IMG/VR virus record: IMGVR_UViG_3300025154_001556
Strand: one strand, 5' to 3'
Length of the DNA: 64,000 bases
DNA from: a virus
Lineage: Duplodnaviria; Caudoviricetes
Both the position numbers and the translations under genes were made by a program. Below are positions 6,869-41,578 of the stretch, piece after piece (position 1 is the stretch's first letter; each line of letters starts with the position of its first letter). Under the pieces are notes generated by a model. That model was not told the DNA's origin and did not search any database. It saw nothing but the letters and a program-made list of their open reading frames with translations.

Positions 6869-6897
6869 TTGACATAGTAATGTGTGCATGTTATATT
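6869..6897 (+). promoter_or_regulatory. Sigma70-type promoter
   Basis: TTGACA-17 bp-TATATT; implies the true start is ATG 6938. Confidence 0.75.
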
Positions 6898-6937
6898 AGC
6901 AAAGTTACTAAATATAAATTCTAACAATGAGGTTATT

Positions 6938-8817: not shown

Positions 8818-8827
8818 TATAAAATGA

Positions 8828-8859
8828 TATAGAGAAGCATCAAACGATGCTTCTCTATA
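8828..8859. terminator. Bidirectional terminator-like hairpin at the strand switch
   Basis: tatagagaagcat-caaacg-atgcttctctata, 13-bp inverted repeat between convergent genes. Confidence 0.8.
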
Positions 8860-8860
8860 C

Positions 8861-10006: not shown

Positions 10007-10014
10007 TTTATCTC

Positions 10015-11193: not shown

Positions 11194-11208
11194 CTTTACA
11201 CCTCGGTA

Positions 11209-11841: not shown

Positions 11842-11854
11842 TTATATCCTCCAT

Positions 11855-12985
11855 TTAGTTTCCGTATGTAACAACAAGAGGTGTTGCTCCACCAGCCACC
11901 TGTTTCCAATTTGTTAATGAGCCTACTTGTATAGGAGAGGACTTATGTACAATTGTGCCATCTCCCAACTGGCCGTAGTTATTAGGGCCCCAAGACCACA
12001 AAGTGCCATCGGTCTTAGTAGCAAAAGAATTGGATGACCAAGCGGAGGTCTGTTTCCAATCAGTTAAACCCCCTACCTGAACAGGGGATGATTTATCAAC
12101 AATAGTACCGTCGCCTATTTGACCGTAGTAGTTTAACCCCCATCCCCAAAGAGTGCCATCTGTCTTAATGGCTAAAACGTGTAACCAACCAGCTGAAAGA
12201 TTTTTCCAATCCGTGAGTGCTCCTATCTGTACCGGGGAGGATTTACGTGTAGTAGTACCATCTCCTAATACACCTACATAAGCATATCCCCAAGCCCACA
12301 AAGTACCATCGGTCTTTATGGCATGGGAAGATAAACTACTACAAGCAACCTCTTTCCAATCGGTTAAAGTTCCAATTTGTATAGGAGATGACTTTCCTAC
12401 CACAGTATCATCACCAAGCTGCCCATAAGTATTTCTACCCCAAGACCATAAAGTACCGTCGGTCTTTATAGCCAAAACGTGTGAATCGTATGTAATTACA
12501 TCTTTCCAATCTGTTAAACTGCCTACTTGTATTGGAGATGATTTAGGGGCAATTGTTCCATCGCCCAACTGACCGTAGCTATTAGCACCCCAAGACCATA
12601 AGGTACCATCAGTTTTTATAGCTAGTGCATTTATAGAACCAACTTTTATAGACAACCAATCTGTTAAACTACCTACCTGTATCGGGGATGATTTAGGCGC
12701 AATTGTTCCATCACCTAGCTGTCCGTTATTATTGTAGCCCCACATCCATAACGTACCGTCAGTTTTGATACCAGCAGAGACATTACCAATAGAACTTACT
12801 TGTTTCCAATTAGTAAGTGCCCCTATCTGAATTGGGGATGATTTAGAAATAGTGGAAGAATCACCCATTTGCCCAAAGTTATTGTAACCCCAAGAAAATA
12901 AAGTATGTCCTACAAATCTATCTATCAGCTCATAATCAGTGAAGAAGAGGTTGTCTAACTCACCTTCTAATGTTCTGAATCCCAT
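11855..12985 (-). CDS. RCC1-repeat beta-propeller protein
   Basis: Same repeat unit. Confidence 0.88.
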   Translation of the reverse strand: MGFRTLEGELDNLFFTDYELIDRFVGHTLFSWGYNNFGQMGDSSTISKSSPIQIGALTNWKQVSSIGNVSAGIKTDGTLWMWGYNNNGQLGDGTIAPKSSPIQVGSLTDWLSIKVGSINALAIKTDGTLWSWGANSYGQLGDGTIAPKSSPIQVGSLTDWKDVITYDSHVLAIKTDGTLWSWGRNTYGQLGDDTVVGKSSPIQIGTLTDWKEVACSSLSSHAIKTDGTLWAWGYAYVGVLGDGTTTRKSSPVQIGALTDWKNLSAGWLHVLAIKTDGTLWGWGLNYYGQIGDGTIVDKSSPVQVGGLTDWKQTSAWSSNSFATKTDGTLWSWGPNNYGQLGDGTIVHKSSPIQVGSLTNWKQVAGGATPLVVTYGN

Positions 12986-13456
12986 TTATTTATCCTCCAA
13001 TATTTCTAGCCTCTCTCTAAGCTCTTTTATGGCCTCTACCAATATACCTATTGTAGCAATATAGTTGACAGCTTTCATGTTATGTTTATCGGTAACCACA
13101 AGCTCGGGCATTGTAATCTCCACCTCTTGTGCTATAAAACCATAAGATTTTTTACCGGTAGAGATCCAATCAAATGAACAGCCTTCTAAATTATTTAACA
13201 TATCTAAAGCACCATATATTGGCTGTATGTTTGTTTTTAGTCTTTCATCGGAAGATGTTACAAAACCTACGGAAATAAAATTACCTGTGTAAGGATTATA
13301 AGATAATTTATTTGAAGACACCCCTGCGGCACTCATAGTACCGGATATTGTGCTCGTAAACATTGGATAATAAGCGGCATCAGTGGTAATGTCTGATACA
13401 GATATTTCTCCACCAGCTCCACCACCTGTACTTACGTAATCAGAATAATTTGACAT
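12986..13456 (-). CDS. Short tail-fibre protein with peptidase S74 intramolecular chaperone
   Basis: SDERLKTNI..I..AL..L..L.G..F.W, GFIAQEVE..MPELV, VNY......LVEAIKEL. Confidence 0.85.
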   Translation of the reverse strand: MSNYSDYVSTGGGAGGEISVSDITTDAAYYPMFTSTISGTMSAAGVSSNKLSYNPYTGNFISVGFVTSSDERLKTNIQPIYGALDMLNNLEGCSFDWISTGKKSYGFIAQEVEITMPELVVTDKHNMKAVNYIATIGILVEAIKELRERLEILEDK

Positions 13457-13467
13457 TTACATCCTCC

Positions 13468-14220
13468 TTATTGTACTATACTTAGGATATTAGGTTTATC
13501 TCTTGTTACCTCAATCGTATGCTCAAAGTGAGCAGAGTATTTTCCTGAAGCGGTAGATATTGTCCAACCATTGGCTTCTCTAAACACCCTACAATCAGGG
13601 CCTTCTATAAGCATGGGCTCTATGGCTAATACCATACCTGCTTTTAATATAGCACCCTTATTTTTTTTACCATAGTTTGGTATTTGAGGTCTTTCATGCA
13701 AATCTTTGCCCACAGCATGACCAACAAATTCGCGTACAACTGAATAACCATTGCTTTCGGCGTGTGTTTGTATGGCATTTGATATATCCCCTATACGATT
13801 ACCGCTGACAGCTTTTTCAATACCTTTATATAAACATTCTTTGGTTGTATCTATTAGCTGTTGATTTTGCTTCGTTACATTTCCTATTGGCAGTGTAATA
13901 GCGGCGTCACCATAAAAATAATCTTTACATATACCAAAATCTATACTAAGTACATCACCATCACGTAATGTAGTATTAGAAGGAAAACCATGTACTACTT
14001 GATTATTAATGGAAGCACATATCGCATACGGGTAACCTTTATAATTTTTAAAGCCTGCTATGGCTTTATGGGATACAGCTAACTCATTGGCTACTTGTTC
14101 TAAATATTGAGTAGTTACACCAGGAACGGCTAAAACTTTCAAATTACTAAGAAAAGTAGCTACTATTTTACAGCTGGTTTTTATTTTTTCTATCTGTGAG
14201 GGTGTTTTTAATATCATCAT
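13468..14220 (-). CDS. map: Methionine aminopeptidase, type I
   Basis: SINNQVVHGFP, GDVLSIDFG, GDAAIT, FVGHAVG..LHE.P, LAIEPM, SAHFEHT. Confidence 0.95.
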   Translation of the reverse strand: MMILKTPSQIEKIKTSCKIVATFLSNLKVLAVPGVTTQYLEQVANELAVSHKAIAGFKNYKGYPYAICASINNQVVHGFPSNTTLRDGDVLSIDFGICKDYFYGDAAITLPIGNVTKQNQQLIDTTKECLYKGIEKAVSGNRIGDISNAIQTHAESNGYSVVREFVGHAVGKDLHERPQIPNYGKKNKGAILKAGMVLAIEPMLIEGPDCRVFREANGWTISTASGKYSAHFEHTIEVTRDKPNILSIVQ

Positions 14221-22140: not shown

Positions 22141-25100
22141 TCACCTATCTAATACATGTCTTATTAATACCGCTAAATCAGTTAATGTGAAGGGTTTATT
22201 TAAATAACCTAAAGCCCCCATAGTTTTTGTTTCCCCAATAGGTCCTGCATCTGAGTAACCACTGGCAATTATTACCTTGGCTTTAGGATCATACTCCAAT
22301 AGTTTTTTCAAACAAGCTATACCACCCATACCAGGCATATTAAGATCCAATATAACTAAATCTATTTTAAAGGTTTTCTTATAGATATCCAGTGCTTCTT
22401 CACCGTTTTTAGCTAATATAACATTATAGCCTTGTGTTGTCAAGTAATTTTCAGTTAAATCAGTTAAAAACTCTTCATCATCTACCACAAGTATGGTTTC
22501 ATTGCCCTCAGTATAATCTGTTACTGTGATTACCGCTGTGGGCGGTTTGATAACAGCGGTTCTATCCGCCGGTAAATAAATACAAAAGGTAGTTCCTTGA
22601 TCAACTACGCTATCACACGTTATATAACCTGAATGGTTTTTTACAATACCATAAACCACATATAAACCTAAACCTGAACCACCTGTCGTTTGTTTTTTCG
22701 TAGTAAAAAAGGGATTAAAAATCTTGCTTATGTTTTCTTGTGGTATACCACACCCAGTATCACTAACCGTAAGTACTACATAGGTGCCTTCTTTAAATTC
22801 TGTATGCCCAGCACCTATATGCGTATTACATGTTATTATATTTAAATCACCACCATCTGGCATAGCATGTACAGCATTTATAGCAAGATTCATTATAACC
22901 TGCTCTATTTGTCCAACATCAGCCATAATAGGGTATAGGTCTTTTTCTAAGGAGTAGTCAATGTTTATCATCTTAGGTATAGTTCTTTTCATAAGCTCTA
23001 CCGTACTTTCTACTGATCTGTTTAAGCTAATTGGTTCTTTAAAACTTCTTTCCTTTTCAGAAAAGTATCTGAGCTGCCCTGTTAAGCGGGCTCCTTTATT
23101 AGCAGCCTCTACTATTGCTTGTATATACTCTTTTTTTGGTGTTTTCTCATTATTTATTTCCAGCATAATTAAATCAGAGTAGCCTAAAATAATTTGTAGT
23201 ATGTTATTAAAATCATGTGATAACCCACCAGATAAGGTGCCTATGGCCTCCATTTTTTGTGCTTCACGTAATTGTTTTTCTAATCGTAATGTTTTTATTA
23301 TATTACGTTTTCGTTGTATTATACGCCAAACATTATCGGCAAGGCTGAGCAAGTGGTCAACGTCTTTATTGTTGTAGTCACCATGATTTTTATTACCTAC
23401 ACCAAAAATAGCTACAATATTGTTACCATCAAATACGGGTACGTTCATATGATTAGTTATAGGCACATGCCCCTCTGGTAAACCACGTTTATTTATATAA
23501 TTAGGATAATCATTTATAAAAATGGCTTCTCTTGTTCTCAAACAATCTGCCCATACACCACACTTATCTAAGTTATAAGTAACATTTAATTTATCTGACC
23601 TAGAGCATTCACTCATAGCTTTGCCATTGTACGCTACTTGGGTTATTTTATCTTCATCACTATTAACCAGACTAACATAGCTTATAGAACTGTCACAAAG
23701 TTTTGAAATACTTTCGGCCACAAAAGCAAATATACTTGCCTCATCTCTTTCTTCCATCTGACTAAGTTCTAAAAGTATTTCTTTACGCTGGCTTAGTAAC
23801 TTGGTTTCTTCCTCCGCCTGTTTGCGCTCAGATATGTCTGTAATAACACAATGTGTTTGTTTAAAATTACCATTGTTATCATAACCAACCCTACCACTGA
23901 CACTAACCCAGACTGGAGTACCATCAGCTTTATTTAAAATATATTCTATACCAGAAAGATAACCAACTTTTTTTAATTTAGGTAGTTGCTCATTTATATA
24001 GGTATGATATCTTTTATCAACAAAATCTAATATATTACGTTTTTGTACTTCTTCTTTTTTATACCCTAATAATTCTAGCCAAGCATTATTAACATCAAGT
24101 AATTCACCGTGTATGCCTAAGGATTGATAGGCCAACGGTGCGTTCATAAACAAATCTTTATATTTTTTCTCATTTTCTATAAGGCGTATTGAGGCTTTTT
24201 GTAAGTCTTGTTGACGTAATTCATTTGATCGTAACGCAAGAAAAATACCAAACAAACCTATTATATACACTGCTGCATGGCAATATAAATCTACTATCAT
24301 TTTAGAATCTGCCAAGTCATGCATATGATCCATTGGAAGGCTTACACTTAGTGCGCCTACTAATTCCCCATCCTTAAATTGTTTGTGGCATACTTTACAG
24401 CCCTCCACTGCGTAAATAGTGTGTATATACCTAAAAGTGTTATCATCCACATAGTAGCTTTCTATTTTTTTACCTTCTTTTATAGACTCTAATAATTTGT
24501 TTTCCCAAAGTTCTGGCTGATCTTTTGTATTAAAACCCAGAATGCGGGCGGAGCTGGCTGCTTTGTGGGTATCTAATGTTACTCCAGCCTCATCAAAGTT
24601 TTTTAGCGTAGTATATGAGTACCTCATTACGACGCTGGGATTGAATAAAGGATTACTAGTACTACCATTAAGACACTCTTTCACATTTGCATGTGTTTCT
24701 TTTTTATGAGTTGTCATATTAGAGTTGGGTAGCCCCCCATAGTTAGTAATCCAGGATCTAAGCAATAAATCCTTTTCAAAAATGTTTTGTGCTTCAAGCA
24801 AAGCTGTGTGTTCTATAATATTATGTATTCTAGTGTGGTTATAACCTAAGGAGCTGGCTATAAGTGCGGTCCAAATAAAGAATACTATGGAATACGCGGT
24901 TGTATTAAGTTTACCACCAAATTTAGTTGTAAACAATAACAATATGGCTACTATTGCCACAAACAACACTAAGTAAGGTATTACTTCTTTTACACCGTAT
25001 TTAGGATATTTTTGTTGTATAGGTAGTTTTGAAAACCATTTATGCAATGCAACACTGTACGGTGATCCTTCATCTATTATCCAATCCTTCATATAATTGT

Positions 25101-25758
25101 CAATAGTGGATAGTATGTTTAAATGTTGATCTTTACGTGTAGCAAATAGTGCGGTGGAGGGAGAAAAAAATAAACCCGTTCTTTTTATATTATATGTTTT
25201 TAACGCGGCAGCATCATGGATATTGTTGGCCACAATAAATGTGGTCTCATTACTACTTATACTATTAAATAATTCAGCATAACTTTGGTAATATAACAAA
25301 GTAGGTTTAATACCAACACTATTGCAATAGTCGTAAAAAGAATTTGCAATTACTGTGTCTTTTATAACCCCTACACGCTTATTATTCAACTCCGTAAAAG
25401 TATTTATACTTGTGTTAGTGTGTGTATAAACAACACCCCAAAAAGTAAATAAAGGTATAGATGAGAAACTAAGAGTTTCTTCAAGAGAATCTGTTTTTGC
25501 AATAGCTGGTAATAGGTCTATTTTACCTGTTTTTAGTTCATCCAAGCACTCTGAAAAATTACAGCTTTTGTAAGTTATATTCCAACCCTCCATAGCTGCT
25601 ATATTATCCAAAACATCTACATACAGGCCTTGTGCTTTATCTTCGTCATAGTAAGTTATAGGTTTATTTTCAAACACACCTACTACTAAATCGTTAGCAG
25701 AAGTAGCTTGTGTTAATAAAACTAGTATGATGCTAAATAATACTGCTTTTAGGGTCAT
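22141..25758 (-). CDS. Hybrid sensor histidine kinase: periplasmic SBP, DUF3365-like heme domain, PAS, GAF, HisKA, HATPase, REC
   Basis: Signal peptide; SBP fold; CKVCH; PAS; GAF; GGLSHDFNNIL H-box; EQVIMNLAINAVHAM, DTGCGI, FNPFFTTK, GSGLGL; ILVVDDE..LVILDLNMPGMGG. Confidence 0.93.
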   Translation of the reverse strand: MTLKAVLFSIILVLLTQATSANDLVVGVFENKPITYYDEDKAQGLYVDVLDNIAAMEGWNITYKSCNFSECLDELKTGKIDLLPAIAKTDSLEETLSFSSIPLFTFWGVVYTHTNTSINTFTELNNKRVGVIKDTVIANSFYDYCNSVGIKPTLLYYQSYAELFNSISSNETTFIVANNIHDAAALKTYNIKRTGLFFSPSTALFATRKDQHLNILSTIDNYMKDWIIDEGSPYSVALHKWFSKLPIQQKYPKYGVKEVIPYLVLFVAIVAILLLFTTKFGGKLNTTAYSIVFFIWTALIASSLGYNHTRIHNIIEHTALLEAQNIFEKDLLLRSWITNYGGLPNSNMTTHKKETHANVKECLNGSTSNPLFNPSVVMRYSYTTLKNFDEAGVTLDTHKAASSARILGFNTKDQPELWENKLLESIKEGKKIESYYVDDNTFRYIHTIYAVEGCKVCHKQFKDGELVGALSVSLPMDHMHDLADSKMIVDLYCHAAVYIIGLFGIFLALRSNELRQQDLQKASIRLIENEKKYKDLFMNAPLAYQSLGIHGELLDVNNAWLELLGYKKEEVQKRNILDFVDKRYHTYINEQLPKLKKVGYLSGIEYILNKADGTPVWVSVSGRVGYDNNGNFKQTHCVITDISERKQAEEETKLLSQRKEILLELSQMEERDEASIFAFVAESISKLCDSSISYVSLVNSDEDKITQVAYNGKAMSECSRSDKLNVTYNLDKCGVWADCLRTREAIFINDYPNYINKRGLPEGHVPITNHMNVPVFDGNNIVAIFGVGNKNHGDYNNKDVDHLLSLADNVWRIIQRKRNIIKTLRLEKQLREAQKMEAIGTLSGGLSHDFNNILQIILGYSDLIMLEINNEKTPKKEYIQAIVEAANKGARLTGQLRYFSEKERSFKEPISLNRSVESTVELMKRTIPKMINIDYSLEKDLYPIMADVGQIEQVIMNLAINAVHAMPDGGDLNIITCNTHIGAGHTEFKEGTYVVLTVSDTGCGIPQENISKIFNPFFTTKKQTTGGSGLGLYVVYGIVKNHSGYITCDSVVDQGTTFCIYLPADRTAVIKPPTAVITVTDYTEGNETILVVDDEEFLTDLTENYLTTQGYNVILAKNGEEALDIYKKTFKIDLVILDLNMPGMGGIACLKKLLEYDPKAKVIIASGYSDAGPIGETKTMGALGYLNKPFTLTDLAVLIRHVLDR

Positions 25759-26887: not shown

Positions 26888-28462
26888 TTATAACCCCAAG
26901 TCATTGTATATATCATCTATATTATGAATTATTTTATAAGGTATATTTAGTTTATTATATGTATTTAGTATATTAGTATTTACATCACTTCTAAATTTAG
27001 GGTCCAAATCACGTACACCATCAGCTAACTGAAAGTTAAACATATCCATATTTGGTATATAAATAGTCTTATATAAATTTAGTATATGGTCCTTTATTAC
27101 ACCTTCATAGGCCGACATTGTAGAATTGCTGCCATGTATAGTAAGATCGTAACAATAAGCGTCCATTACAGACCTATCAGCAATAACAAAATCAACCTTA
27201 TCTTGTAATTCTAATTCCTCAGTTATTTGTTTACATGTTAACCATCTTGGAGTATGGGAACCTGCCCCCTTATTTATAATAAAGGGGCATTTCCGAGCTA
27301 ACTCATCAAGTACTATGGCATTTTTACCAGACAACTTCATTTTAGTACAAAGACTATACGCTATGGTGCTTTTTCCAGAGTTTTTTAATACTGTACCATC
27401 TGCATGGAGAAATAAATTATTACCGTCAAGAGTAAATCCATAATAAGTGCCAATACCAAGAGGGGTTACATTACGTATGCCCACTCTTGATGTTGTTCTT
27501 TGAGGATTTTTTACCTGTACCGCCTTTTTATGTGCAAGTTTACATGGTATTATATCTATACCTCTTGTTAAATTTACCCTATAATAATATCCCTCTTTAC
27601 CATTATTTGTGCAAACACATTTTACTTTTTTTATTGTTGTGTGTATACCGCAACTTCTAGAAATATAAAATAAATCATAGGCTAGTTGTTTAGACTTTAA
27701 TTTTACTTCATATCTACCTTTACTACGTTGATCTAAGTGTCCATCGGCATCCAGTATACCGGCTATAATGGATAAACGTTGTTCTATACTTGCATTAAAA
27801 TAATCTAAGGGTATATGTTTATTATTAATTAAATTATATTTCTGTAAATCAACTAAAAAACTATTCCCTTTACCTCTAACATTAGTTATTCCATAAGTAT
27901 ACTTAGTATTACCAACGTGTTTAAAAAACAAATTTCTGCTTTCAGCGAAACACTTAAATGTATTTAATATAATTTCATCTGTATTAGTTAATCTTGTTCC
28001 TGCTGAATGCCCATCACCAAGCCAAACACCCAGTATATATGGCGGTATTGCTAAGGTACTACTTACTGCTCTTTTAATAACAGCATTAAACTTACAAAGA
28101 ATTCTTTGTTTTTGTTTACCTAATTTTAAATAATTTTTTACTGTTATTATACGTATATCACCTAATTGTTGCTTTTTTAGTGATCTTTTTGTAGCCCCAC
28201 TTTTACGAGATTGTGAGTATTGTAATACTAACTCGTGACTTGCATTATAAATATGTTTTATTCCATCAATATATTCAAATTCATAAAGATCTTCCCTACC
28301 GTCTTTAAGTTCCAACACTCTTCTTGGGGTAGAGTCATCCCCCATTAAAACATCACCAACTACTATAAGTTCGACTGGTTTTATGGTACCATCATACATT
28401 CTAACTAAGGTGCCTTTACCAAAACAACCATGCGTGCCGCTAATAGCTATAATTTTCTTCAT
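26888..28462 (-). CDS. AAA_28/NadR-like P-loop kinase-ATPase (175 aa after splicing) containing an intein
   Basis: Spliced Walker A ISGTHG|SGKST; ELAR, DRS..D. Confidence 0.82.
   Translation of the reverse strand: MKKIIAISGTHGCFGKGTLVRMYDGTIKPVELIVVGDVLMGDDSTPRRVLELKDGREDLYEFEYIDGIKHIYNASHELVLQYSQSRKSGATKRSLKKQQLGDIRIITVKNYLKLGKQKQRILCKFNAVIKRAVSSTLAIPPYILGVWLGDGHSAGTRLTNTDEIILNTFKCFAESRNLFFKHVGNTKYTYGITNVRGKGNSFLVDLQKYNLINNKHIPLDYFNASIEQRLSIIAGILDADGHLDQRSKGRYEVKLKSKQLAYDLFYISRSCGIHTTIKKVKCVCTNNGKEGYYYRVNLTRGIDIIPCKLAHKKAVQVKNPQRTTSRVGIRNVTPLGIGTYYGFTLDGNNLFLHADGTVLKNSGKSTIAYSLCTKMKLSGKNAIVLDELARKCPFIINKGAGSHTPRWLTCKQITEELELQDKVDFVIADRSVMDAYCYDLTIHGSNSTMSAYEGVIKDHILNLYKTIYIPNMDMFNFQLADGVRDLDPKFRSDVNTNILNTYNKLNIPYKIIHNIDDIYNDLGL
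27380..28426 (-). mobile_element. Intein (349 aa) with LAGLIDADG endonuclease
   Basis: Starts CFGKGTLVRMYDG (VMA-like block A); AGILDADG; ends YGFTLDGNNLFLHADGTVLKN followed by Ser. Confidence 0.93.
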
Positions 28463-33034: not shown

Positions 33035-33063
33035 AGTATATAACATTAATCAGTTTTCGTCAA
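33035..33063 (-). promoter_or_regulatory. Sigma70-type promoter
   Basis: TTGACG-17 bp-TATACT on - strand. Confidence 0.65.
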
Positions 33064-33214
33064 CAACTTTTATAACTGACTTGCATTTTTTGTCGCACTT
33101 GCATTCTTTAATGTATGGTACTTTGCCAGCTTCTCCTACTGAGTTTTCAATACCACCGTATTCACCTGAGATATGACAAGCACATTCATCACTACATTTA
33201 CACTCATCTGACAT
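33050..33214 (-). CDS. Small Cys-rich protein (54 aa); true start 33214, not 33286
   Basis: GGAGG RBS before ATG 33214; the longer start overlaps the tRNA. Confidence 0.55.
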   Translation of the reverse strand: MSDECKCSDECACHISGEYGGIENSVGEAGKVPYIKECKCDKKCKSVIKVVDEN

Positions 33215-33235
33215 ATTATTACCTCCAATATTTTT

Positions 33236-33306
33236 TGTCCCGTAGAGGAATTGAACCCCTTTAAGCGAGTTTAGAGTTCGCCGCAACGCCTGTCTGCCAA
33301 CGGGAC
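33236..33306 (-). tRNA. tRNA with CUA anticodon (amber suppressor type)
   Basis: GTCCCGT/ACGGGAC acceptor, A73; D arm with GG; GCGAA-CTCTAAA-CTCGC anticodon arm; AGGGG-TTCAATT-CCTCT T arm; CCA not encoded. Confidence 0.85.
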
Positions 33307-33307
33307 T

Positions 33308-33904
33308 TTATGCTGTAATATTTTTGATAGCACTATAATGGTTCCAGATTTCTAAATCAAGTTCGGCGACCGTTTTATTGTATTTATATGCTAGTTTAAC
33401 AAATTCTTGTTCTAATTGCAAGTATTTTCTTTTGGTAGGTGTTGCTTTTGGTGCATCAAACCCCATAAGGCGCATAAATTTAAGTATATGGGTATCTAAC
33501 CCAGCGCAGTTTGCGTTCTTTCTACTATGTATAATAAAACACCTGGCTGTTTTCATTCCTATGCCGTGTATTTTTTCTAAGTCTTCTACGGCGCACTTTT
33601 TTAAATCCAACCCACAACAAGCCAGAGCTATAAAAGTTTTGGCTTTATTGTTATAACAACCTATGCCACAAGATCGTAATAGGTTATCTATACCGTGGAG
33701 CGGGGTACCTACATTGTTAGCAGCATAAGTAAGTATAGCATTAAATGGGGTTTCATCATTATGTGTTATTTTATTGAGCAATGTTTCTAGGCAACGTGCT
33801 GCTGTCTTACCGTTCTTTCCAGCAGCACATACCCAGAATAGTAGGCTCTCTTGTAGTTGAGCCGTAGTTTGATTATAGTTTGTTATGTTGTTTGGATCAA
33901 TCAT
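33308..33904 (-). CDS. HhH-GPD DNA glycosylase-like protein (Ogg/Nth-like)
   Basis: LEKIHGIGMKTARCF, LDTHIL.FM, KY..LE..F, DL..W. Confidence 0.75.
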   Translation of the reverse strand: MIDPNNITNYNQTTAQLQESLLFWVCAAGKNGKTAARCLETLLNKITHNDETPFNAILTYAANNVGTPLHGIDNLLRSCGIGCYNNKAKTFIALACCGLDLKKCAVEDLEKIHGIGMKTARCFIIHSRKNANCAGLDTHILKFMRLMGFDAPKATPTKRKYLQLEQEFVKLAYKYNKTVAELDLEIWNHYSAIKNITA

Positions 33905-34191
33905 AATAGTTGTAACTTTTTAAAAACTTTATCTTCGGCTACTGCTGCTATGGCAGTTAATTCATAGTTCATATCAGGCTCCCTAAAACTCTTCCAGGCC
34001 ACGCCAATCAAATCTAACTTATCACCCCAGTATTTAAGTATATCTTCATTCTTGACTTGCAGATATATTAAAGTGCCGTTGGTCCAAGAGGTTTTATAAT
34101 TAAGTAAATATTCAGCTAAGGCGTGGCCTGCTTGTATGGCCTGTTGTATTTTAGTTAAATCTTTTCTAACAAGCACATACATCTTTTTCAT
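33901..34191 (-). CDS. Pth2-like peptidyl-tRNA hydrolase
   Basis: KMYVLVRKDL....AIQAGHA, L.V.NE..L, FREPD..ELTAIA. Confidence 0.75.
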   Translation of the reverse strand: MKKMYVLVRKDLTKIQQAIQAGHALAEYLLNYKTSWTNGTLIYLQVKNEDILKYWGDKLDLIGVAWKSFREPDMNYELTAIAAVAEDKVFKKLQLL

Positions 34192-34474
34192 ATTGCTTCA
34201 TCACCTCCTCCAATAAATTACTATACGGCGGATTGTAATTAGGTGATCCTGGTACCTCTATTTTTTCCATAGGAGTACCATGTAATAAGCAATATACAAT
34301 ATGTTTATATCTAAACTTTTCTTTAAGTTTGTTTAAATAGCACAGCTCTAATGTGTATTTATTATATATATTAGCACGTTGTGCTTCTTTGTAGCTTAAC
34401 CTGGTTGATCGTATTGAGCTTGCCAATTGTTTAAGTTCTGCTTTAAGTAGCGGCAGTTTTGTTTTCCGTGACAT
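34166..34474 (-). CDS. Hypothetical basic helical phage protein
   Basis: AAGGAG RBS; FRY.HI.YCLL.G...E.IE; overlaps the Pth2-like start. Confidence 0.7.
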   Translation of the reverse strand: MSRKTKLPLLKAELKQLASSIRSTRLSYKEAQRANIYNKYTLELCYLNKLKEKFRYKHIVYCLLHGTPMEKIEVPGSPNYNPPYSNLLEEVMKQYEKDVCAC

Positions 34475-34481
34475 AATTATT

Positions 34482-34577
34482 CTCCTTTAATTTGATTAAT
34501 AATAAATTAATTAGTTTAATATCAAATTAAAAGTCACGGTGGTGCTCTGGCCTACGTCCAAATCATAGTTGTCCTCC
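34482..34577 (-). promoter_or_regulatory. Leader mini-ORF MIWT-UAG-ARAPP-UGA plus a 13-bp stem covering the downstream SD
   Basis: GGAGG (34577-34573), 6 nt, ATG 34566; TAG 34554-34552; TGA 34536-34534; CTTTTAATTTGAT (34533-34521) pairs with ATCAAATTAAAGG (34496-34484), overlapping SD AAGGAG (34487-34482). Confidence 0.7.
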
Positions 34578-34581
34578 TATA

Positions 34582-36003
34582 TTATAGGTCTATTGGAAAT
34601 TTTTTTAATGTTGTTGCTGTATACCCGCGCCAATCACCGGCGTATACTTGCCCATTATACTTCATGTATTCATACATATCAGTGCTATTTAATTTATTAA
34701 GTAATAATTCAGCGTCCACAGTAAACTCACTAAGAACTAAACCTGATCTAACAAGGCTATTATCTAATTCAGAGGTTAGAATAAAGTTAGGTTTATCGTT
34801 TAGAGCAGATGTAACTATACACCGCCCTCCAAAATTGCGCAAGCCTTGTTTTCTGCCAAATTCAAACCATTTATATCCCTTACTTTTACCCTTGTCCCTT
34901 TTTAAAAGTTCCTCCTTATGGTATAAAAGATATTTATATGTTTCAGGAAATCTTGTAGCAAATTTATTCTCATCCAAACAAGTTAAATCAGGTAGGTAAG
35001 GAAATATAATTTGATACTCTGTGTTTATTATGTCTGCTTCTGTTTTTACTACTGATAATTTTACAAGTTTTTTTACTGCTGTTTTTTCAATTTTAAAATT
35101 ATCTACATAAATATAAGTATTATCTACTTTATCTGGTTTTAAAACAAATATGTTGTCTCGTAAAGTGGCAATACCGCCTGTAATTTTACATACATCCCCT
35201 AATACTGCGTTTTTAGTGTTTTGTATTACTATACCATTGTCTACAAACATGTTTCTGTCTATGGCATAGTCATTACCATATAAATTATAGGTAAATGTCT
35301 TATCTATGCTAAACAAATCTTTATTTTTTACCATATAAAGTATGGCAGTATACGCGCCGCATGAAAACTGTTTAGTAGAACCATGGTCTTTTACATAAAA
35401 CACATAATTAGTTATATTATTTCTTAAATTACGGCCGGCCTTAGATCTAAGATATGATGATGGTGTTATTAATGCAACCACACCACCTGGTTTTACTAAC
35501 TCTAAAGCCCTTTGTATAAAAGCATAGTATATATCAGTTGCGCCATTAGCACAGACGGTATAATTATTTTTTAGTAAAGGCCTATATGAGTCATCTAAAT
35601 TTTGTAGTCTTATATAGGGCGGATTACCAATTACAATGTCATATGTATTTTTTAATAGTTTTTTTGTAAATAGGGCATCGCTTTCAAGTATTGTTGGGTG
35701 TATAGATAGATTTGAAAAAATATTTCTAGCCTCGATAACAAAAGTAGTGTCCTTCTCAACAAGTGTTACCAAATTAGCTGCTTCATCAAGAGGCATCCCG
35801 TATTTTGCTGACAACATACCAATAAAATAATAAGCAAACACACCAGTGCCTGCCGCCAAGTCTAAAATACTTGGGCACTTTTTTGTGTCTAATAAGTTCA
35901 AAGCGGTGGAGCACATTTCTTCTACAATATTTTCTGGCGTGAAATGTGCCCCGGATAACTTTCTAAACTCATCAGTTCTTAATATATCTTTGTAAAAATC
36001 CAT
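34582..36003 (-). CDS. N6-adenine DNA methyltransferase, gamma class (TaqI/Eco57I-like)
   Basis: HFTP, ILDLAAGTGVF, VIGNPPYIR, DIYYAFI, C-terminal TRD-like region. Confidence 0.9.
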   Translation of the reverse strand: MDFYKDILRTDEFRKLSGAHFTPENIVEEMCSTALNLLDTKKCPSILDLAAGTGVFAYYFIGMLSAKYGMPLDEAANLVTLVEKDTTFVIEARNIFSNLSIHPTILESDALFTKKLLKNTYDIVIGNPPYIRLQNLDDSYRPLLKNNYTVCANGATDIYYAFIQRALELVKPGGVVALITPSSYLRSKAGRNLRNNITNYVFYVKDHGSTKQFSCGAYTAILYMVKNKDLFSIDKTFTYNLYGNDYAIDRNMFVDNGIVIQNTKNAVLGDVCKITGGIATLRDNIFVLKPDKVDNTYIYVDNFKIEKTAVKKLVKLSVVKTEADIINTEYQIIFPYLPDLTCLDENKFATRFPETYKYLLYHKEELLKRDKGKSKGYKWFEFGRKQGLRNFGGRCIVTSALNDKPNFILTSELDNSLVRSGLVLSEFTVDAELLLNKLNSTDMYEYMKYNGQVYAGDWRGYTATTLKKFPIDL

Positions 36004-36008
36004 ACCAG

Positions 36009-36683
36009 TTAAAGTGATTCAATATATGTAGTTAATGACACTGATCTGGGCACGTAAACACTTGTTGTATCGATATAAACAGAAGAGTCAAGTTGTCTAT
36101 AAGGAACAAGTACTACATTTACACCTTTACTTAACAGCGACAAATATCTAGCTCTAGAGTGCACGTGTTCTGGATCATTGAGATCCAGAAAAGCCATAAA
36201 AGTAAAGTAGTTTCCGACCACACCTGTTCTGTATTCCATAAGTTTATTATATTGTACATGCCTACCTAATATATCTCTAGCCATATTTGCACTATTTTTA
36301 GCGAGGCTTTGTGTTGCTGCTCTAATTTCTAAACCATGGATAGGAGCTATGTCTAAAAGATCATTATAGTAATCTTCTTTATTCATATAAGTGGCATCAA
36401 CAGTGATTGTATCTTGACTTACAAATCCACCGTAGTTAAACACGTGCTTAAAGGTTAAGTCTGCCTTAGAGGAGGTGCCCTCAGTATGCACACGGCGCTT
36501 ACCCTTAGCTAAGTACATATATCTACAAGCTTGATAAACTTTATATAATTTTGTATCACTTCGTTGCGCATTTTGCCCTGAATAATTTTCAAAAAATTCA
36601 AACATACCTTCTAACCCGCGCTCAAAATTGGCCACAAGGTCCTGTGTAGAAACTTCTTTTGCTATCGCTAATTCTCCAGTCAT
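36009..36683 (-). CDS. Hypothetical protein
   Basis: ORF track; GGAGG-like RBS; own promoter. Confidence 0.65.
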   Translation of the reverse strand: MTGELAIAKEVSTQDLVANFERGLEGMFEFFENYSGQNAQRSDTKLYKVYQACRYMYLAKGKRRVHTEGTSSKADLTFKHVFNYGGFVSQDTITVDATYMNKEDYYNDLLDIAPIHGLEIRAATQSLAKNSANMARDILGRHVQYNKLMEYRTGVVGNYFTFMAFLDLNDPEHVHSRARYLSLLSKGVNVVLVPYRQLDSSVYIDTTSVYVPRSVSLTTYIESL

Positions 36684-36734
36684 GTTAAAAAACCTCCTGT
36701 CTAAAATTAATAATTCATTGCCTTAATTATGGGT

Positions 36735-36763
36735 AGTACAGCACATGTACAATACAATGTCAA
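36735..36763 (-). promoter_or_regulatory. Sigma70-type promoter
   Basis: TTGACA-17 bp-TGTACT. Confidence 0.6.
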
Positions 36764-36772
36764 CAACTTTTA

Positions 36773-38563
36773 TTACACCCTTGTATTAATACTCCAACCT
36801 TTGTAGTGTTCTGCAGTCATCGTAGCACCCAGATCTGGATTTCTTATGTAATTACGCCATGTGGCATCTACCACACCATCTTTTGTGACATACCAGAAAT
36901 CTTCTACATAGTTGTAATTATCTTTAAGTGGTACTCTTTCATCTATTGCTAAGTCAGTGGCGTAGTATGAACCCTCTATCGGCACCCATTCACCATCGTC
37001 CCGTTTGAATGCTCCCCAACCATGTCCCGCTATGGAGCTACTTGACATAGCCCCTGTGCCGGCTTTAACTAAACCACCATACATTCTTAAACGTGAGGGG
37101 TCTACACCGGAATGTAATGCCAAACTTGTTATAAGGAAAGCCATATCCTCACAATTATGGCATATATGACCAAACTTACTTACGAACGTATGAGTATCAG
37201 CCACCATAAAGTCACGAGTATTGGTGCTGCCCATAGGTTTAACACTGTGTATGGACACTTCGCTTATACCGTCGTACCCGTAGTCCTTTGCAAAATAGCT
37301 ATTAGAGTTATAACTAAGTCGCCATATGGGTTTGTTGCCCACCCCTTTATGGTCTTTTTGTAACCACATATGAATAGGTATGCCCAACTGCATGTGCAGT
37401 CTCTGTAGGTCGTAAGCTAACTTGTACGAGCTAGTTGAATAGGTCTTTTCTTTGTTAGAGTTTTCAGCATATTTTGAGTAATGACCATCCCCAAGAAAGT
37501 GTCCATTTATTATAGCATATAGTTTATTCGCTGGCAAGTAAAATAGTTCTTCCGGTATATTAATATCAAAACTATTGACTTTACAAAGCCTTAAATACTG
37601 CTTCAACTTTGAGCTCAAAAAATTAAGGTAGGGCACACCACTGTTATTAGTAGTAATACTATATGGTATGTTATATTTATCCAAAATAGGTACTATACTT
37701 GTGGGTACATCATAACCACTTGTTCTAACGTGACTACGGTCTGTATCACCTTCAGCTAAAAAATGCCCTATAACAAAACATAAATCTTCGGTAAGCCAGT
37801 CAATGTCTTTAATTACATATGGTAGTTTTTTAACACAAGGTATTTTACGTTTCCACCACCTGCTAAGGTCTATATCACATAGCTTAGTTTTCTCATAGTC
37901 AGAATACTTTTGTACACGCCTAGTCCAGAAAGGGTGGTCCTCTGTCACGTCTATCCAGGTACCATTAGTAAATTTCACCCTAAAAATAGGTAGATTTCCC
38001 TTCTCCCATATTTTAAGCACAGGTTTATAACAATAACTTTTTTTGTTAAAGTCATAAGATAGAACTATGTCCCCTACTTGTAAAGCGCCTACTTCTTTGA
38101 GGCCATCCTTTGTCCAAATTTCCTCATAGTTAGCAGTACAATCCCCGTCCTTATGTAAAAGCGTCTCTGTTGGGTAAGCCCAGTACTCATCGGGGCCGTA
38201 GTTCATGTCATCAGTTTGATAAGTAATATTGCTATTTACCCATTGTTCAACAGCATACATTTTTTCAGTATCTGTTGTAGTGCCTTTGGTTATTTCTGCA
38301 GCGAGTTTAAATAATCTGGTATTGGGATATTCAAAGTATTTATTGTAGTCCAAATCTTGGCCGGCGGCTTTACCACTAACCGCACCATTAAAACGCAAAA
38401 GTGCCACATCAAGAGCTGATTTTGTGTTCATCAGGTCTTGTATAAAGGCACTTGCTGAGTTGGGTTCTGTTTTAAAACTATCCCAAATGGTGGCGGATTT
38501 CCAATTATTGATTTGAGGTAGTAACTCAGATATAAAATTAGATACGCTACTGATTGAAGACAT
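36773..38563 (-). CDS. Transglutaminase-like cysteine proteinase (267 aa after splicing) containing an intein
   Basis: Spliced V...I.Y..D...YG..EYWA.P.ETL..K.GD|CEDMA; GHGW; W...E. Confidence 0.85.
   Translation of the reverse strand: MSSISSVSNFISELLPQINNWKSATIWDSFKTEPNSASAFIQDLMNTKSALDVALLRFNGAVSGKAAGQDLDYNKYFEYPNTRLFKLAAEITKGTTTDTEKMYAVEQWVNSNITYQTDDMNYGPDEYWAYPTETLLHKDGDCTANYEEIWTKDGLKEVGALQVGDIVLSYDFNKKSYCYKPVLKIWEKGNLPIFRVKFTNGTWIDVTEDHPFWTRRVQKYSDYEKTKLCDIDLSRWWKRKIPCVKKLPYVIKDIDWLTEDLCFVIGHFLAEGDTDRSHVRTSGYDVPTSIVPILDKYNIPYSITTNNSGVPYLNFLSSKLKQYLRLCKVNSFDINIPEELFYLPANKLYAIINGHFLGDGHYSKYAENSNKEKTYSTSSYKLAYDLQRLHMQLGIPIHMWLQKDHKGVGNKPIWRLSYNSNSYFAKDYGYDGISEVSIHSVKPMGSTNTRDFMVADTHTFVSKFGHICHNCEDMAFLITSLALHSGVDPSRLRMYGGLVKAGTGAMSSSSIAGHGWGAFKRDDGEWVPIEGSYYATDLAIDERVPLKDNYNYVEDFWYVTKDGVVDATWRNYIRNPDLGATMTAEHYKGWSINTRV
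37154..38140 (-). mobile_element. Intein (329 aa) with LAGLIDADG endonuclease
   Basis: Starts C142; TEDHPF (block B); GHFLAEG and GHFLGDG; ends HTFV..GHICHN followed by Cys. Confidence 0.93.
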
Positions 38564-39595: not shown

Positions 39596-39681
39596 TGGAG
39601 CCTAGAGAGGGATTCGAACCCCCGATGTGTTTTACCACGACAGCTTACAAAACTGCTGCTATACCCCTTAGCGATCTAGGC
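39596..39681 (-). tRNA. tRNA-Thr(UGU) with an atypical long variable arm
   Basis: GCCTAGA/TCTAGGC, U73, encoded CCA; GCAGT-TTTGTAA-GCTGT; 16-nt variable region; GGGGG-TTCGAAT-CCCTC. Confidence 0.78.
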
Positions 39682-41490: not shown

Positions 41491-41496
41491 TTGTTG

Positions 41497-41578
41497 TGGA
41501 GAGTGATGGAGTCGAACCACCCGAGCTTCCGCATCTGATTTACAGTCAGACCCGCTGCCATCTACGGTATAACTCTCC
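41497..41578 (-). tRNA. tRNA-Tyr(GUA)
   Basis: GGAGAGT/ACTCTCC, A73; TCTGA-CTGTAAA-TCAGA; long variable arm; GGTTCGACTCC. Confidence 0.92.

What the first reader, a model, noticed from the sequence alone, without database searches (positions are those of the whole stretch)
33050..34474. Gene run linking a Pth2-like hydrolase, an unknown helical protein and a suppressor tRNA
Seen: overlapping genes (102-aa ORF, Pth2-like, HhH glycosylase) followed directly by tRNA-CUA and a Cys-rich ORF, with no obvious terminator between them. Established: Pth enzymes recycle peptidyl-tRNA released by drop-off, and short minigenes provoke drop-off. Inference: the module may clean up the side effects of readthrough or stalling. 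If the tRNA depends on translation of the genes upstream, it could form a positive feedback switch. The 102-aa ORF is the direct target of the leader and may bind ribosomes or release factors.
Basis: inference. Interest (0 to 1): 0.65.

Follow-up and report, generated by a model that had tools for sequence, protein, structure and literature searches.

The report
Amber-readthrough-gated phage Pth2-like operon
A large phage that otherwise uses the normal genetic code carries a UAG-reading tRNA in one operon with two small proteins, and those proteins are probably made only after that tRNA reads through a UAG in a tiny ribosome-stalling leader; I found no published description of such a readthrough sensor.

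Summary
The gene run is real. On the minus strand lie ORF102, a Pth2-fold protein, an Ogg2-like HhH glycosylase, tRNA(CUA) and a Cys-rich ORF, packed or overlapping, with no terminator-like site between them.

The link is not chance.
- 54 of 65 short-family Pth2-like loci in IMG/VR have a same-strand tRNA(CUA) within 6 kb. In about 25 it starts just after the stop codon.
- ORF102 relatives sit directly upstream, and 7 of the top 150 relatives are fused to the Pth2-like domain.
- A close relative (234 kb) that lacks leader, ORF102 and Pth2-like gene has only a decayed tRNA(CUA) remnant.

The key part lies just outside the given coordinates: a leader ORF (34566-34534) reading M-I-W-T-UAG-A-R-A-P-P-UGA. 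RAPP is a published ribosome-arrest motif. The leader abuts a two-tier hairpin that hides the Shine-Dalgarno and start of ORF102. About 40 related loci keep this design, always with TAG.

Best reading: ORF102 and the Pth2-like protein are translated only while UAG is being read through. What they then do (peptidyl-tRNA clean-up, ribosome rescue, feedback on the tRNA) is unproven. HhH and the Cys-rich ORF are passengers.

This scan reported the same design earlier on other DNA. I found no published description. Nothing here is experimental.

The parts
34581..34608 (-). Sigma-70-like promoter (TTAAAA, 16 nt, TATAAT) just upstream of the leader; the -10 overlaps the stop of the methyltransferase gene
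   Evidence: 10 of 12 matches. Such hits are no commoner here than in shuffles, so this is weak on its own. Relatives L122 and L126 have TTGACA-type promoters at the same place although their upstream genes differ.
34573..34578 (-). Shine-Dalgarno AGGAGG of the leader ORF, 6 nt before its ATG
   Evidence: Read from the sequence.
34534..34566 (-). Leader ORF: ATG ATT TGG ACG TAG GCC AGA GCA CCA CCG TGA = M-I-W-T-amber-A-R-A-P-P-opal. Amber codon at 34554-34552; RAPP codons at 34548-34537.
   Evidence: Translation. Conserved in relatives L122, L126 and L127, with synonymous Arg (AGA to CGT) and Pro (CCA to CCG) changes and RAPP swapped for RGPP. About 40 further loci keep the design. The strict pattern occurs in 28 loci with TAG on the gene's strand and 0 with TAA or TGA there; on the opposite strand 0, 1 and 1. 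It is the only RAPP/RGPP/RAGP in a real reading frame of the window.
34466..34539 (-). Two-tier hairpin. Outer helix: 34539-34533 (last Pro codon, UGA and C) pairs with 34472-34466 (G of the ORF102 AUG plus codons 2-3). Inner helix: 34532-34521 pairs with 34496-34485 and covers AAG of the SD AAGGAG (34487-34482).
   Evidence: MFE -22.3 kcal/mol, z = -3.08, 0 of 200 shuffles fold as well. The stems are kept while the loop is unrelated in L122, L126 and L127. In 33 loci the 5' arm starts 0-15 nt after the first Pro codon; the downstream SD, identifiable in 30 of them, is on average 88% paired.
34166..34474 (-). ORF102: basic helical protein of an uncharacterised family, partner of the Pth2-like protein
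   Evidence: No Pfam, PHROG, NCBIfam or PADLOC hit. A profile search found 1609 representative clusters at E <= 1e-3. It lies directly upstream of the Pth2-like gene in L002, L003 and L006. It is fused to that domain in L004 and in 7 of the top 150 representatives. The model of the fusion P0166 has pLDDT 95, with a helical hairpin ahead of the Pth2 fold.
33901..34191 (-). Pth2-fold protein of 96 aa, with motifs QQAIQAGHA and F-x-E-P..L-T-A
   Evidence: Invariant in the family: A18, Q20, H23, F69, E71, P72, T79, L95. The lysine of the Pth2 GKGK motif aligns with a variable Gln.
33308..33904 (-). Ogg2-like HhH-GPD glycosylase/lyase: a passenger gene inserted between the Pth2-like gene and the tRNA in this lineage
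   Evidence: The Lys in GIGMK and the Asp in LDTH are kept. It is absent from the other Pth2-like loci but retained in relative G001, which lost the module.
33236..33306 (-). tRNA with anticodon CUA (amber suppressor): class I, 71 nt, A73, no encoded CCA, A31-C39 mismatch
   Evidence: 70 of the 255 tRNAs in 82 sources (the related loci plus the window) are CUA. The amino acid it carries is not resolved.
33050..33214 (-). Cys-rich 54-aa ORF (CKC..C.CH..ECKC..KC), last gene of the unit; passenger of unknown function
   Evidence: Conserved in L122 and also in G001, which lacks the module.
33035..33063 (-). Promoter-like TTGACG, 17 nt, TATACT ahead of the Rad52-like gene; it marks the start of the next unit
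   Evidence: The same TTGACG, 17 nt, TATATT is present in L122.

Best explanation
This is a suppressor-tRNA cassette in which a leader peptide reports whether UAG is being read through.

The operon is promoter, leader, ORF102, Pth2-like gene, (HhH), tRNA(CUA), (Cys-rich ORF).

Without a working suppressor, ribosomes on the leader terminate at the UAG in codon 5. Their footprint ends before the hairpin. The hairpin keeps the Shine-Dalgarno and start codon of ORF102 paired, so ORF102 and the translationally coupled Pth2-like gene stay silent.

Once tRNA(CUA) is made and charged, ribosomes read through UAG and translate A-R-A-P-P. They arrest or pause at the RAPP/Pro-Pro-stop. Their footprint covers the outer helix and the base of the inner helix. 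This frees the ORF102 start region, and ORF102 and the Pth2-like protein are made in proportion to suppression.

The two proteins act as one unit, since they are fused in other phages. Most likely this is a tRNA-ester hydrolase aimed at peptidyl-tRNA or stalled ribosomes produced by readthrough.

Shown here: the anatomy, the conservation, TAG specificity, the fusions and the co-loss. Inferred: readthrough, arrest on so short a peptide, hairpin opening, and the enzymatic role.
For: - Leader and hairpin anatomy.
- Peptide-level conservation after the amber codon in four close relatives (ARAPP, TRGPP, TRGPP, VRGPP), with synonymous AGA/CGT and CCA/CCG changes. This argues that the post-amber frame is translated.
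- The same design, ATG, 1-7 codons, TAG, 2-12 codons, Pro-Pro, usually then a stop, then a hairpin containing the next gene's SD, in 33 loci, plus about 8 variants with R-S-P-stop or two ambers.
- Strict pattern: 28 loci with TAG on the gene's strand, 0 with TAA or TGA there; on the opposite strand 0, 1 and 1, over 920 kb.
- A sister clade puts an in-frame TAG at codon 3-7 of the Pth2-like gene itself. The tree splits into a mainly leader clade (41 of 48) and a mainly N-terminal-TAG clade (17 of 20).
- RAPP and RGPP are published robust arrest motifs that EF-P does not relieve (PMC12992588, PMC10951233).
- tRNA(CUA) linkage: 54 of 65 short-family loci, always on the same strand.
- ORF102/Pth2-like fusions.
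- Co-loss in G001.
- The window itself uses TAG as a genuine stop (15 of 72 genes; 93% coding density under the standard code), so UAG decoding is conditional rather than constitutive.
Against: - No experiment supports any step.
- Published RAPP arrests were shown in longer nascent chains. A 9-10 residue chain may not arrest.
- Many related leaders have K-P-P-stop rather than RxPP, and EF-P may relieve that.
- In the window's MFE structure only AAG of the SD AAGGAG is paired. Much of the occlusion rests on the invariant outer helix, which shows no covariation.
- Promoter calls are no better than chance.
- The charging identity and efficiency of the tRNA are unknown, and it has an A31-C39 mismatch.
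- The Pth2-like protein lacks the lysine of the Pth2 GKGK motif and falls below Pfam's cut-off.
- A suppressor in a genome where 21% of genes end in TAG should be costly.
- A later check of an earlier scan finding of the same kind priced the bold reading at only 20/100.
Confidence: 0.7

Rival explanations
1. The leader is an ordinary upstream mini-ORF (M-I-W-T-stop). TAG is simply its stop codon, and the conserved downstream sequence matters only as RNA or DNA (hairpin, operator), not as a Pro-Pro peptide. The genes are made constitutively, or are controlled by something unrelated to suppression.
For: Short ORFs ending in a stop are common. In some loci the CCNCC of the Pro codons forms part of the anti-SD arm (L049, L111, L057), so nucleotide-level selection could keep it.
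Against: The pattern is TAG-specific: 28 loci against 0 with TAA or TGA on the same strand. There are synonymous Arg and Pro codon changes with the peptide kept. In most loci the Pro codons lie outside the helix and vary at the wobble base. The sister clade places the TAG inside the Pth2-like ORF itself.
Confidence: 0.12
2. In the infected cell TAG is effectively a sense codon, because the genome is recoded outside the window or suppression is constitutive. The leader is then a plain arrest peptide that senses something else, for example the activity of the Pth2-like/ORF102 complex, EF-P or Pro-tRNA supply, and the amber codon carries no information.
For: Some related contigs are clearly TAG-recoded, with an in-frame TAG near codon 33 of the Pth2-like gene in L045, L056 and L113. 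Only 64 kb of a genome of roughly 237 kb was seen. Arrest peptides usually monitor the product of the downstream gene.
Against: In the window TAG ends 15 of 72 genes and no gene needs readthrough. Relative G001 has lost the tRNA and the module, so no essential gene of this lineage seems to need them. An amber near the very start of the leader or gene is far more regular than random sense-codon use would give.
Confidence: 0.1
3. The Pth2-like/ORF102 pair is not a clean-up enzyme. It acts on the code switch itself, either by limiting the suppressor (deacylating or hydrolysing its tRNA esters, giving a set-point) or by opposing release factor 1 (positive feedback, giving a switch). The leader works as in the best explanation; only the output differs.
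For: The gating logic is equally that of a feedback regulator, as in prfB autoregulation through its in-frame UGA (established knowledge). The catalytic lysine of Pth2 is not kept. The pair is tightly tied to the tRNA gene rather than to translation genes in general.
Against: The Pth2 fold, the Q-x-x-H-A motif and an invariant acidic residue are kept. Phage tmRNA genes lie in 10 of the 65 short-family loci, which fits a rescue or clean-up theme. The weak RF1/RF2 rows have probability at most 0.13 and are not evidence of RF1 similarity.
Confidence: 0.2

Closest known systems
RAPP/RGPP-type regulatory arrest peptides (ApdA, ApdP, ApcA; SecM with RAGP; Streptomyces RAPP/RGPP leaders; PMC10951233, PMC12992588, PMC7897499)
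   Same: A small upstream ORF ending in R-A/G-P-P. The arrest site abuts an RNA structure that hides the start region of the downstream gene. The motif is otherwise avoided in proteins, and it is the only in-frame case in this window.
   Different: The leader is only 10 codons long and has no signal or membrane segment, so it cannot sense pulling force. The arrest motif can be reached only by reading through a stop codon. The regulated genes are a Pth2-like pair next to a suppressor tRNA, not a secretion factor.
prfB (RF2) autoregulation through an in-frame UGA
   Same: A stop codon placed early in a reading frame reports the balance between termination and an alternative decoding event, and sets the expression of a translation factor.
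   Different: The competing event here is suppression by a dedicated tRNA rather than a +1 frameshift. The read-out is hairpin opening by a stalled ribosome. The sensed activity and the regulated product are different molecules.
Translational attenuation of erm, cat and cmlA, and secM-secA
   Same: A ribosome stalled on a leader melts a hairpin that sequesters the SD of the next gene.
   Different: The trigger is a suppressor tRNA, not an antibiotic or secretion stress.
Suppressor tRNAs and 'code change modules' of stop-codon-recoded phages (crAss-like, Lak, Jade, Agate; bioRxiv 10.1101/2021.08.26.457843)
   Same: A phage-encoded tRNA(CUA) lies in a standard-code region. The idea is shared that the suppressor tRNA gates expression of genes that carry in-frame stops.
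   Different: That preprint does not contain the words peptidyl, hydrolase, tmRNA or leader. This phage shows no recoding in 64 kb. What is gated here is a small accessory operon, not lysis or structural genes.
Archaeal/eukaryotic peptidyl-tRNA hydrolase 2 (Pth2, PF01981; 2zv3, 3erj, 1xty, Bit1 1q7s)
   Same: Same fold (TM 0.73-0.84) and a shared R-x-D-L...Q-x-x-H-A...acidic...T-A-(I/V) pattern.
   Different: It is about 20 residues shorter and below Pfam's cut-off. The lysine of the GKGK motif is replaced, and Asp-Ala-Gly is replaced by Glu-Pro-(Asp/Tyr). It always comes with, or is fused to, the ORF102 helical domain.
Lambda bar minigenes (peptidyl-tRNA drop-off; from memory, not checked here)
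   Same: Without a suppressor the leader is a 4-codon minigene, the kind of ORF known to release short peptidyl-tRNAs that Pth must recycle.
   Different: Bar minigenes are not gated by a suppressor, do not control a downstream SD, and are not linked to a phage hydrolase.

Membership tests
Pth2 peptidyl-tRNA hydrolase (PF01981) | Pth2 alpha/beta fold | tested here: met
   AlphaFold model with pLDDT 96.6. The Foldseek hits at E <= 0.001 are Pth2 chains (2zv3, 3erj, 1q7s, 1xty, 1wn2, 1rlk) plus one DUF2000 chain (2gax), TM 0.73-0.84, probability 1.0.
Pth2 peptidyl-tRNA hydrolase (PF01981) | Scores above Pfam's gathering threshold | tested here: not met
   17.5 bits against a cut-off of 23, covering residues 3-64 only. 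The family profile against PDB sequences hits only Pth2 chains, but weakly (2zv3, E = 0.0084).
Pth2 peptidyl-tRNA hydrolase (PF01981) | Lysine of the GKGK motif (reported catalytic Lys18 of S. solfataricus Pth2; from memory, not verified in the library) | tested here: not met
   The HMM alignment to 2zv3 places this lysine opposite Gln16, a variable position in the family (Q, Y, H, S, G).
Pth2 peptidyl-tRNA hydrolase (PF01981) | Acidic residue of the D-A-G motif and the conserved His of A-Q-x-x-H-A | tested here: inconclusive
   Invariant Glu71 aligns with the Asp, and invariant His23 with the His. Whether Glu can replace Asp is unknown.
Pth2 peptidyl-tRNA hydrolase (PF01981) | Hydrolyses N-blocked aminoacyl-tRNA | not testable with these tools
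   Needs an enzyme assay or complementation of pth(ts).
RAPP-type arrest-peptide leader | R-A/G-P-P at the C-terminal end of a small ORF upstream of the regulated gene | tested here: met
   Window ARAPP-stop; relatives TRGPP and VRGPP.
RAPP-type arrest-peptide leader | The arrest site is placed so that the stalled ribosome opens a structure hiding the downstream start region | tested here: met
   The helix starts in the second Pro codon and includes part of the SD and the AUG region. The same geometry is seen in 33 loci. This is a predicted structure only.
RAPP-type arrest-peptide leader | N-terminal signal or membrane segment that lets secretion force release the arrest (monitoring substrate) | tested here: not met
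   The leader has only four residues before the amber codon and ten codons in all.
RAPP-type arrest-peptide leader | Arrest demonstrated (toeprint, peptidyl-tRNA accumulation) | not testable with these tools
   Published arrests used longer nascent chains.
Stop-codon-recoded phage (TAG reassigned, code 15) | Many genes interrupted by in-frame TAG; low coding density under the standard code | tested here: not met
   Coding density is 93% with the standard code, and TAG ends 15 of 72 genes. The two candidate in-frame TAGs are not supported by family hits. Only 64 kb of roughly 237 kb was seen.
Stop-codon-recoded phage (TAG reassigned, code 15) | Phage-encoded suppressor tRNA | tested here: met
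   tRNA(CUA) at 33306..33236.
HhH-GPD / Ogg2-type DNA glycosylase | Ogg-HhH domain above the Pfam cut-off, with the HhH lysine and the downstream aspartate | tested here: met
   PF22175 scores 38.2 bits against a cut-off of 27. Alignment to 9o00 keeps GIGMK and LDTH.

The most novel reading that the evidence does not exclude
The RAPP leader is a monitoring substrate for the operon's own product. The ORF102/Pth2-like complex would release the short peptidyl-tRNA from the arrested ribosome. The leader would then read two things at once: whether UAG is being decoded (needed to reach RAPP), and whether hydrolase or rescue capacity is sufficient (needed to leave RAPP). Together with the co-transcribed tRNA this would be a self-contained, portable homeostat for stop-codon readthrough. 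With Rho polarity on the untranslated operon it would instead be a bistable genetic-code switch.
Probability: 0.15. Interest if true: 0.9.

Novelty: new variant of a known kind. Interest (0 to 1): 0.8.

Why it matters
Phage suppressor tRNAs are thought to switch the genetic code during infection, but it is not known how a cell or phage measures or tolerates readthrough. This operon looks like a natural sensor. A stop codon placed ahead of a ribosome-arrest motif turns "UAG is being read" into translation of two proteins.

If confirmed, it would:
- add a new input class, suppressor tRNA activity, to arrest-peptide regulation;
- assign a context and a testable role to two uncharacterised protein families, the ORF102 family (1609 representative clusters) and the phage Pth2-like family;
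- show that amber suppression is used as a regulatory signal even in phages that keep the standard code;
- provide a compact genetic part for reporting amber suppression in synthetic biology.

Tried and rejected
- TAG recoding inside the window: ORF sets under TAG=Q and merged-frame candidates at 5025 and 55556. Family hits lie wholly on one side of the TAG and coding density is 93% under the standard code. Rejected for this 64 kb.
- Amino-acid identity of the tRNA, by similarity to 183 other phage tRNAs. The nearest isotypes scatter (Trp, Lys, Arg, Asn and others) and the window's tRNA matches none. Unresolved. It is a class I tRNA, so it is not of the bacterial Tyr, Leu or Ser type.
- Function of ORF102: Pfam, PHROGs, NCBIfam, PADLOC and the ESM Atlas gave nothing usable. 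Foldseek on the fusion model is dominated by the Pth2 domain. The low-probability RF1/RF2 rows (probability at most 0.13) are not evidence.
- Background rate of tRNA(CUA) near an unrelated phage gene: the ribonucleotide-reductase query returned a single locus, so there is no proper negative control. That locus did lead to the co-loss relative G001.
- Whether TAG stops relax to TAA in G001, which lost the suppressor: mixed (two TAG to TAA, several unchanged). Not used.
- DNA similarity to deposited phages: none. No whole genome is held for the window.
- HDV-like theta ribozymes near the tRNA (lead from PMC10879173): Rfam at gathering threshold finds only tRNAs in 30-48 kb.
- Many independent origins of amber gating: the tree shows two old clades, one for each design, not many convergences.
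- Literature search for a prior description: none found. No paper in the library holds 'suppressor tRNA', 'Pth2' and 'phage' together.
Full report
**Observation**

On the minus strand the window carries, in order:
- ORF102 (34474..34166);
- a 96-aa ORF (34191..33901) that overlaps ORF102 by 26 nt;
- a 198-aa ORF (33904..33308) joined to it by an ATGA overlap;
- a 71-nt tRNA with anticodon CUA (33306..33236) that starts 2 nt after the preceding stop;
- a Cys-rich 54-aa ORF (33214..33050).

Rfam's tRNA model scores the tRNA at 42.8 bits against a cut-off of 29. The terminator scan finds nothing on the minus strand between 34600 and 33050.

**What the proteins are**

The 96-aa protein is below Pfam's PTH2 cut-off (17.5 against 23 bits) but matches PHROG 3668, "hydrolase", at 4e-14.
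- With an alignment of 37 relatives, AlphaFold gives a model of pLDDT 96.6.
- Its only significant structural neighbours are Pth2 enzymes and DUF2000 (TM 0.73-0.84).
- A family profile hits only Pth2 chains in the PDB.
- That alignment puts the family's invariant His23 and Glu71 opposite the His and the D-A-G aspartate of Pth2. The lysine of the Pth2 GKGK motif falls on a variable Gln.
- It is therefore a divergent Pth2-fold protein whose activity is open.

The 198-aa protein is an Ogg2-like HhH glycosylase/lyase with its Lys and Asp in place.

ORF102 has no hit in Pfam, PHROGs, NCBIfam, PADLOC or the ESM Atlas. It nevertheless belongs to a large family: 1609 representative clusters at E <= 1e-3.

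**Is the linkage real?**

Searching IMG/VR with the Pth2-like protein gave 41 loci, and searching with an alignment gave 80.
- Of the 80 loci, 65 carry the short (about 100 aa) form. 54 of these have a tRNA(CUA) within 6 kb, always on the same strand. In about 25 it starts 285-335 nt after the gene's start, that is, directly behind its stop.
- 70 of the 255 tRNAs in 82 sources (these loci, L122 and the window) are CUA.
- A longer (about 180 aa) subfamily has a tRNA(CUA) 4.6-5.2 kb upstream in 9 of 15 loci.
- ORF102 relatives lie directly upstream of the Pth2-like gene in L002, L003 and L006.
- The two are one polypeptide in L004/L005 and in 7 of the top 150 ORF102 representatives. The model of one such fusion is confident (pLDDT 95): a basic helical hairpin followed by the Pth2 fold.
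- The HhH gene is not found in these loci.

**A natural deletion**

The IMG/VR contig G001 (234,228 bp) is colinear with the window at about 79-90% DNA identity.
- It keeps the ClpB-like, Rad52-like, Cys-rich and HhH genes.
- It lacks window positions 33909-36785: the Pth2-like gene, ORF102, the leader, a methyltransferase and ORF224.
- At the tRNA's place it has a remnant. The acceptor halves and CTA are recognisable, but a 12-nt deletion removes half of the T arm. Neither ARAGORN nor the Rfam model calls it a tRNA.
- The module and the tRNA were therefore lost together, while HhH and the Cys-rich ORF stayed. The unit is accessory in this lineage, and HhH and the Cys-rich ORF are passengers.

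**The leader**

Between the methyltransferase gene and ORF102 lies AGGAGG, six bases, then ATG ATT TGG ACG TAG GCC AGA GCA CCA CCG TGA. This reads M-I-W-T-amber-A-R-A-P-P-opal (34566..34534).

The last Pro codon, the UGA and the next C pair with the G of the ORF102 AUG and its codons 2-3 (34539-34533 with 34472-34466). The next 12 bases pair with 34496-34485, which covers the first half of the SD AAGGAG. The fold has z = -3.08, and none of 200 shuffles folds as well.

Three independent close relatives (L122, L126, L127; ORF102 54-68% identical) keep ATGATTTGGACGTAG exactly.
- After the amber codon they read T-R-G-P-P, T-R-G-P-P and V-R-G-P-P. Arg is encoded by AGA or CGT, and Pro by CCA or CCG. 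This is the pattern of a translated peptide.
- The stems are kept and the loops are unrelated.
- The gene upstream of the leader differs.

RAPP and RGPP are the two motifs reported to give the most robust arrest, not relieved by EF-P, and to be avoided in bacterial proteomes (PMC12992588, PMC10951233). In all six frames of the window there are three RAPP/RGPP/RAGP strings, and only the leader's lies in a real reading frame.

**Generality of the leader**

In 33 loci a mini-ORF lies 340-553 nt upstream of the Pth2-like start, just before the ORF102-like gene. Its form is SD, ATG, 1-7 codons, TAG, 2-12 codons, Pro-Pro, usually then a stop. Typical peptides are M-T-amber-K-F-K-P-P-stop and M-E-Y-G-amber-V-A-R-G-P-P-stop. 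About eight more loci have R-S-P-stop or two amber codons.

A strict version of the pattern occurs in 28 loci with TAG on the gene's strand, and in none with TAA or TGA there. On the opposite strand the counts are 0, 1 and 1, over 920 kb.

Folding the stretch from the Pro codons to the next start gives, in 33 loci, a hairpin whose 5' arm begins 0-15 nt after the first Pro codon. Its 3' arm holds the SD of the next gene, which is on average 88% paired in the 30 loci where an SD could be located.

**A second design**

In a sister clade the Pth2-like gene has no leader of this kind. It begins ATG, 1-5 codons, TAG, and then the domain follows in frame. A few genes of the leader clade also carry an internal TAG near codon 33.

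The tree of 68 sequences separates a clade that mostly has the N-terminal TAG (17 of 20) from a clade that mostly has the leader (41 of 48). These are two old designs kept through deep divergence, not many convergences. Both make synthesis of the Pth2-like protein depend on decoding UAG.

**Genetic code of this phage**

Under the standard code, co-directional ORFs cover 93% of the window. The larger gaps hold tRNAs. TAG ends 15 of 72 genes. The two places where a TAG could join neighbouring frames are not supported by family hits. In this 64 kb TAG is therefore a real stop, and decoding it is conditional. The rest of the genome could not be read; the longest contig with the identical ORF102 is 236,830 bp.

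**Mechanism proposed**

1. The operon is transcribed from a promoter just upstream of the leader. Such a promoter is present at the same place in relatives, but it is only a consensus match.
2. The tRNA is probably cut from the same transcript. It abuts the upstream gene in the window, L122 and L126, although that gene differs, so no dedicated promoter is conserved.
3. Without a charged suppressor, ribosomes terminate at codon 5. With ACG in the P site their footprint, about 15 nt (textbook value, not measured here), ends near 34542, short of the helix at 34539.
4. [quoted passage not shown] The same footprint then covers the outer helix and about six bases of the inner one, exposing the SD and AUG of ORF102.
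5. The Pth2-like gene follows by translational coupling.

The anatomy and its conservation are shown. Readthrough, arrest on a 9-residue chain and hairpin opening are inferred.

**What the proteins do**

This is unknown. The Pth2 fold, the partnership with a basic helical domain, the amber gate, and phage tmRNA genes in 10 of the 65 short-family loci fit a hydrolase that deals with peptidyl-tRNA or stalled ribosomes produced by readthrough. Feedback on the suppressor itself or on release factor 1 fits the circuit equally well. A more specific idea is that the complex releases the RAPP-arrested ribosome, so that the leader monitors its own product, as other arrest peptides do.

**Relation to earlier work**

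I reached the leader model before consulting the scan's notes (note; look-up). The notes show that the same design has been reported repeatedly on other DNA in this scan, with the same closest-known families. One later check priced the bold reading of one of them low.

I found no published description.
- The phage recoding preprint does not contain the words peptidyl, hydrolase, tmRNA or leader.
- No paper in the library holds 'suppressor tRNA', 'Pth2' and 'phage' together.

What this window adds:
- an exact RAPP leader whose close relatives show synonymous changes;
- a two-tier helix that also covers the start codon;
- a passenger glycosylase between the Pth2-like gene and the tRNA;
- a natural co-loss of module and tRNA in a near relative.

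Noticed in passing
window 1264-1272 (+); 38879-38871, 43479-43471, 57444-57436 (-): Four of the 15 TAG-terminated genes end in TAG-NNN-TAG (TAG tat TAG, TAG gta TAG, TAG tat TAG, TAG tta TAG). Only about 3% of all TAGs on the minus strand have a second TAG one codon later. This may be a guard against amber readthrough. In relative G001 one of them reads TAA gta TAG.
   Followed up: partly
L132 3669-3752 (G001 = IMGVR_UViG_3300037692_000137): A decayed tRNA(CUA) remnant, with a 12-nt deletion in the T arm, in a close relative that has also lost the leader, ORF102 and the Pth2-like gene.
   Followed up: yes
L084, L101, L115, L118, L096, L042, L044, L047, L061, L065 (and L007, L013, L023, L025, L033, L034): tmRNA calls by ARAGORN within a few kb of the tRNA(CUA) and the Pth2-like gene. 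Six (in L007, L013, L023, L025, L034, L044) carry tags ending in -AA, for example ANDSRFAIAA. The others have atypical tags (for example VTNYVKIVKKIK in L047) and may not be real. None is in this window.
   Followed up: no
L098-L121 (long subfamily, e.g. L099, L105, L109, L117): A Pth2-like subfamily of about 180 aa (RMYFFVPYN..QQAIQAGHA..WKTWIILNGGTTN) has no adjacent tRNA, but a tRNA(CUA) lies 4.6-5.2 kb upstream in 9 of 15 loci.
   Followed up: no
window 39596-39681 (-): tRNA-Thr(UGU) with a 12-nt insert in the variable region, unusual for a Thr tRNA. The tRNA-Tyr at 41496-41578 scores only 33.6 bits, with several mispairs.
   Followed up: no
window 22141-25758 (-): A 1205-aa phage protein with SBP_bac_3, PAS, GAF, HATPase_c and Response_reg domains: a hybrid sensor histidine kinase (Pfam list).
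   Followed up: no
window 26888-28462 (-) and 36773-38563 (-): A 524-aa ORF has terminase-like and thymidylate-kinase-like PHROG matches together with intein Hint and homing-endonuclease Pfam hits. A 596-aa transglutaminase-like protein has a faint LAGLIDADG hit. Both may host inteins.
   Followed up: no
window 8861-12985 (-): Three RCC1-repeat proteins (8861-10006, 10015-11193, 11855-12985) with a 210-aa ORF between the second and third. Most of the region 6010-13480 has no counterpart in relative G001.
   Followed up: no
window 34166-34200 (-); ORF102 family alignment A5: ORF102 relatives end in a conserved short tail, V-[C/R]-A-[C/S]-[A/S], whose meaning is unknown. In the window ORF102 itself stops at TAG, so readthrough would add four residues.
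   Followed up: no
L122 7625-7698: In this relative the base 5' of the CUA anticodon is C, not the near-universal U33. The G001 remnant shows the same. The window's tRNA has U33 but an A31-C39 mismatch.
   Followed up: no
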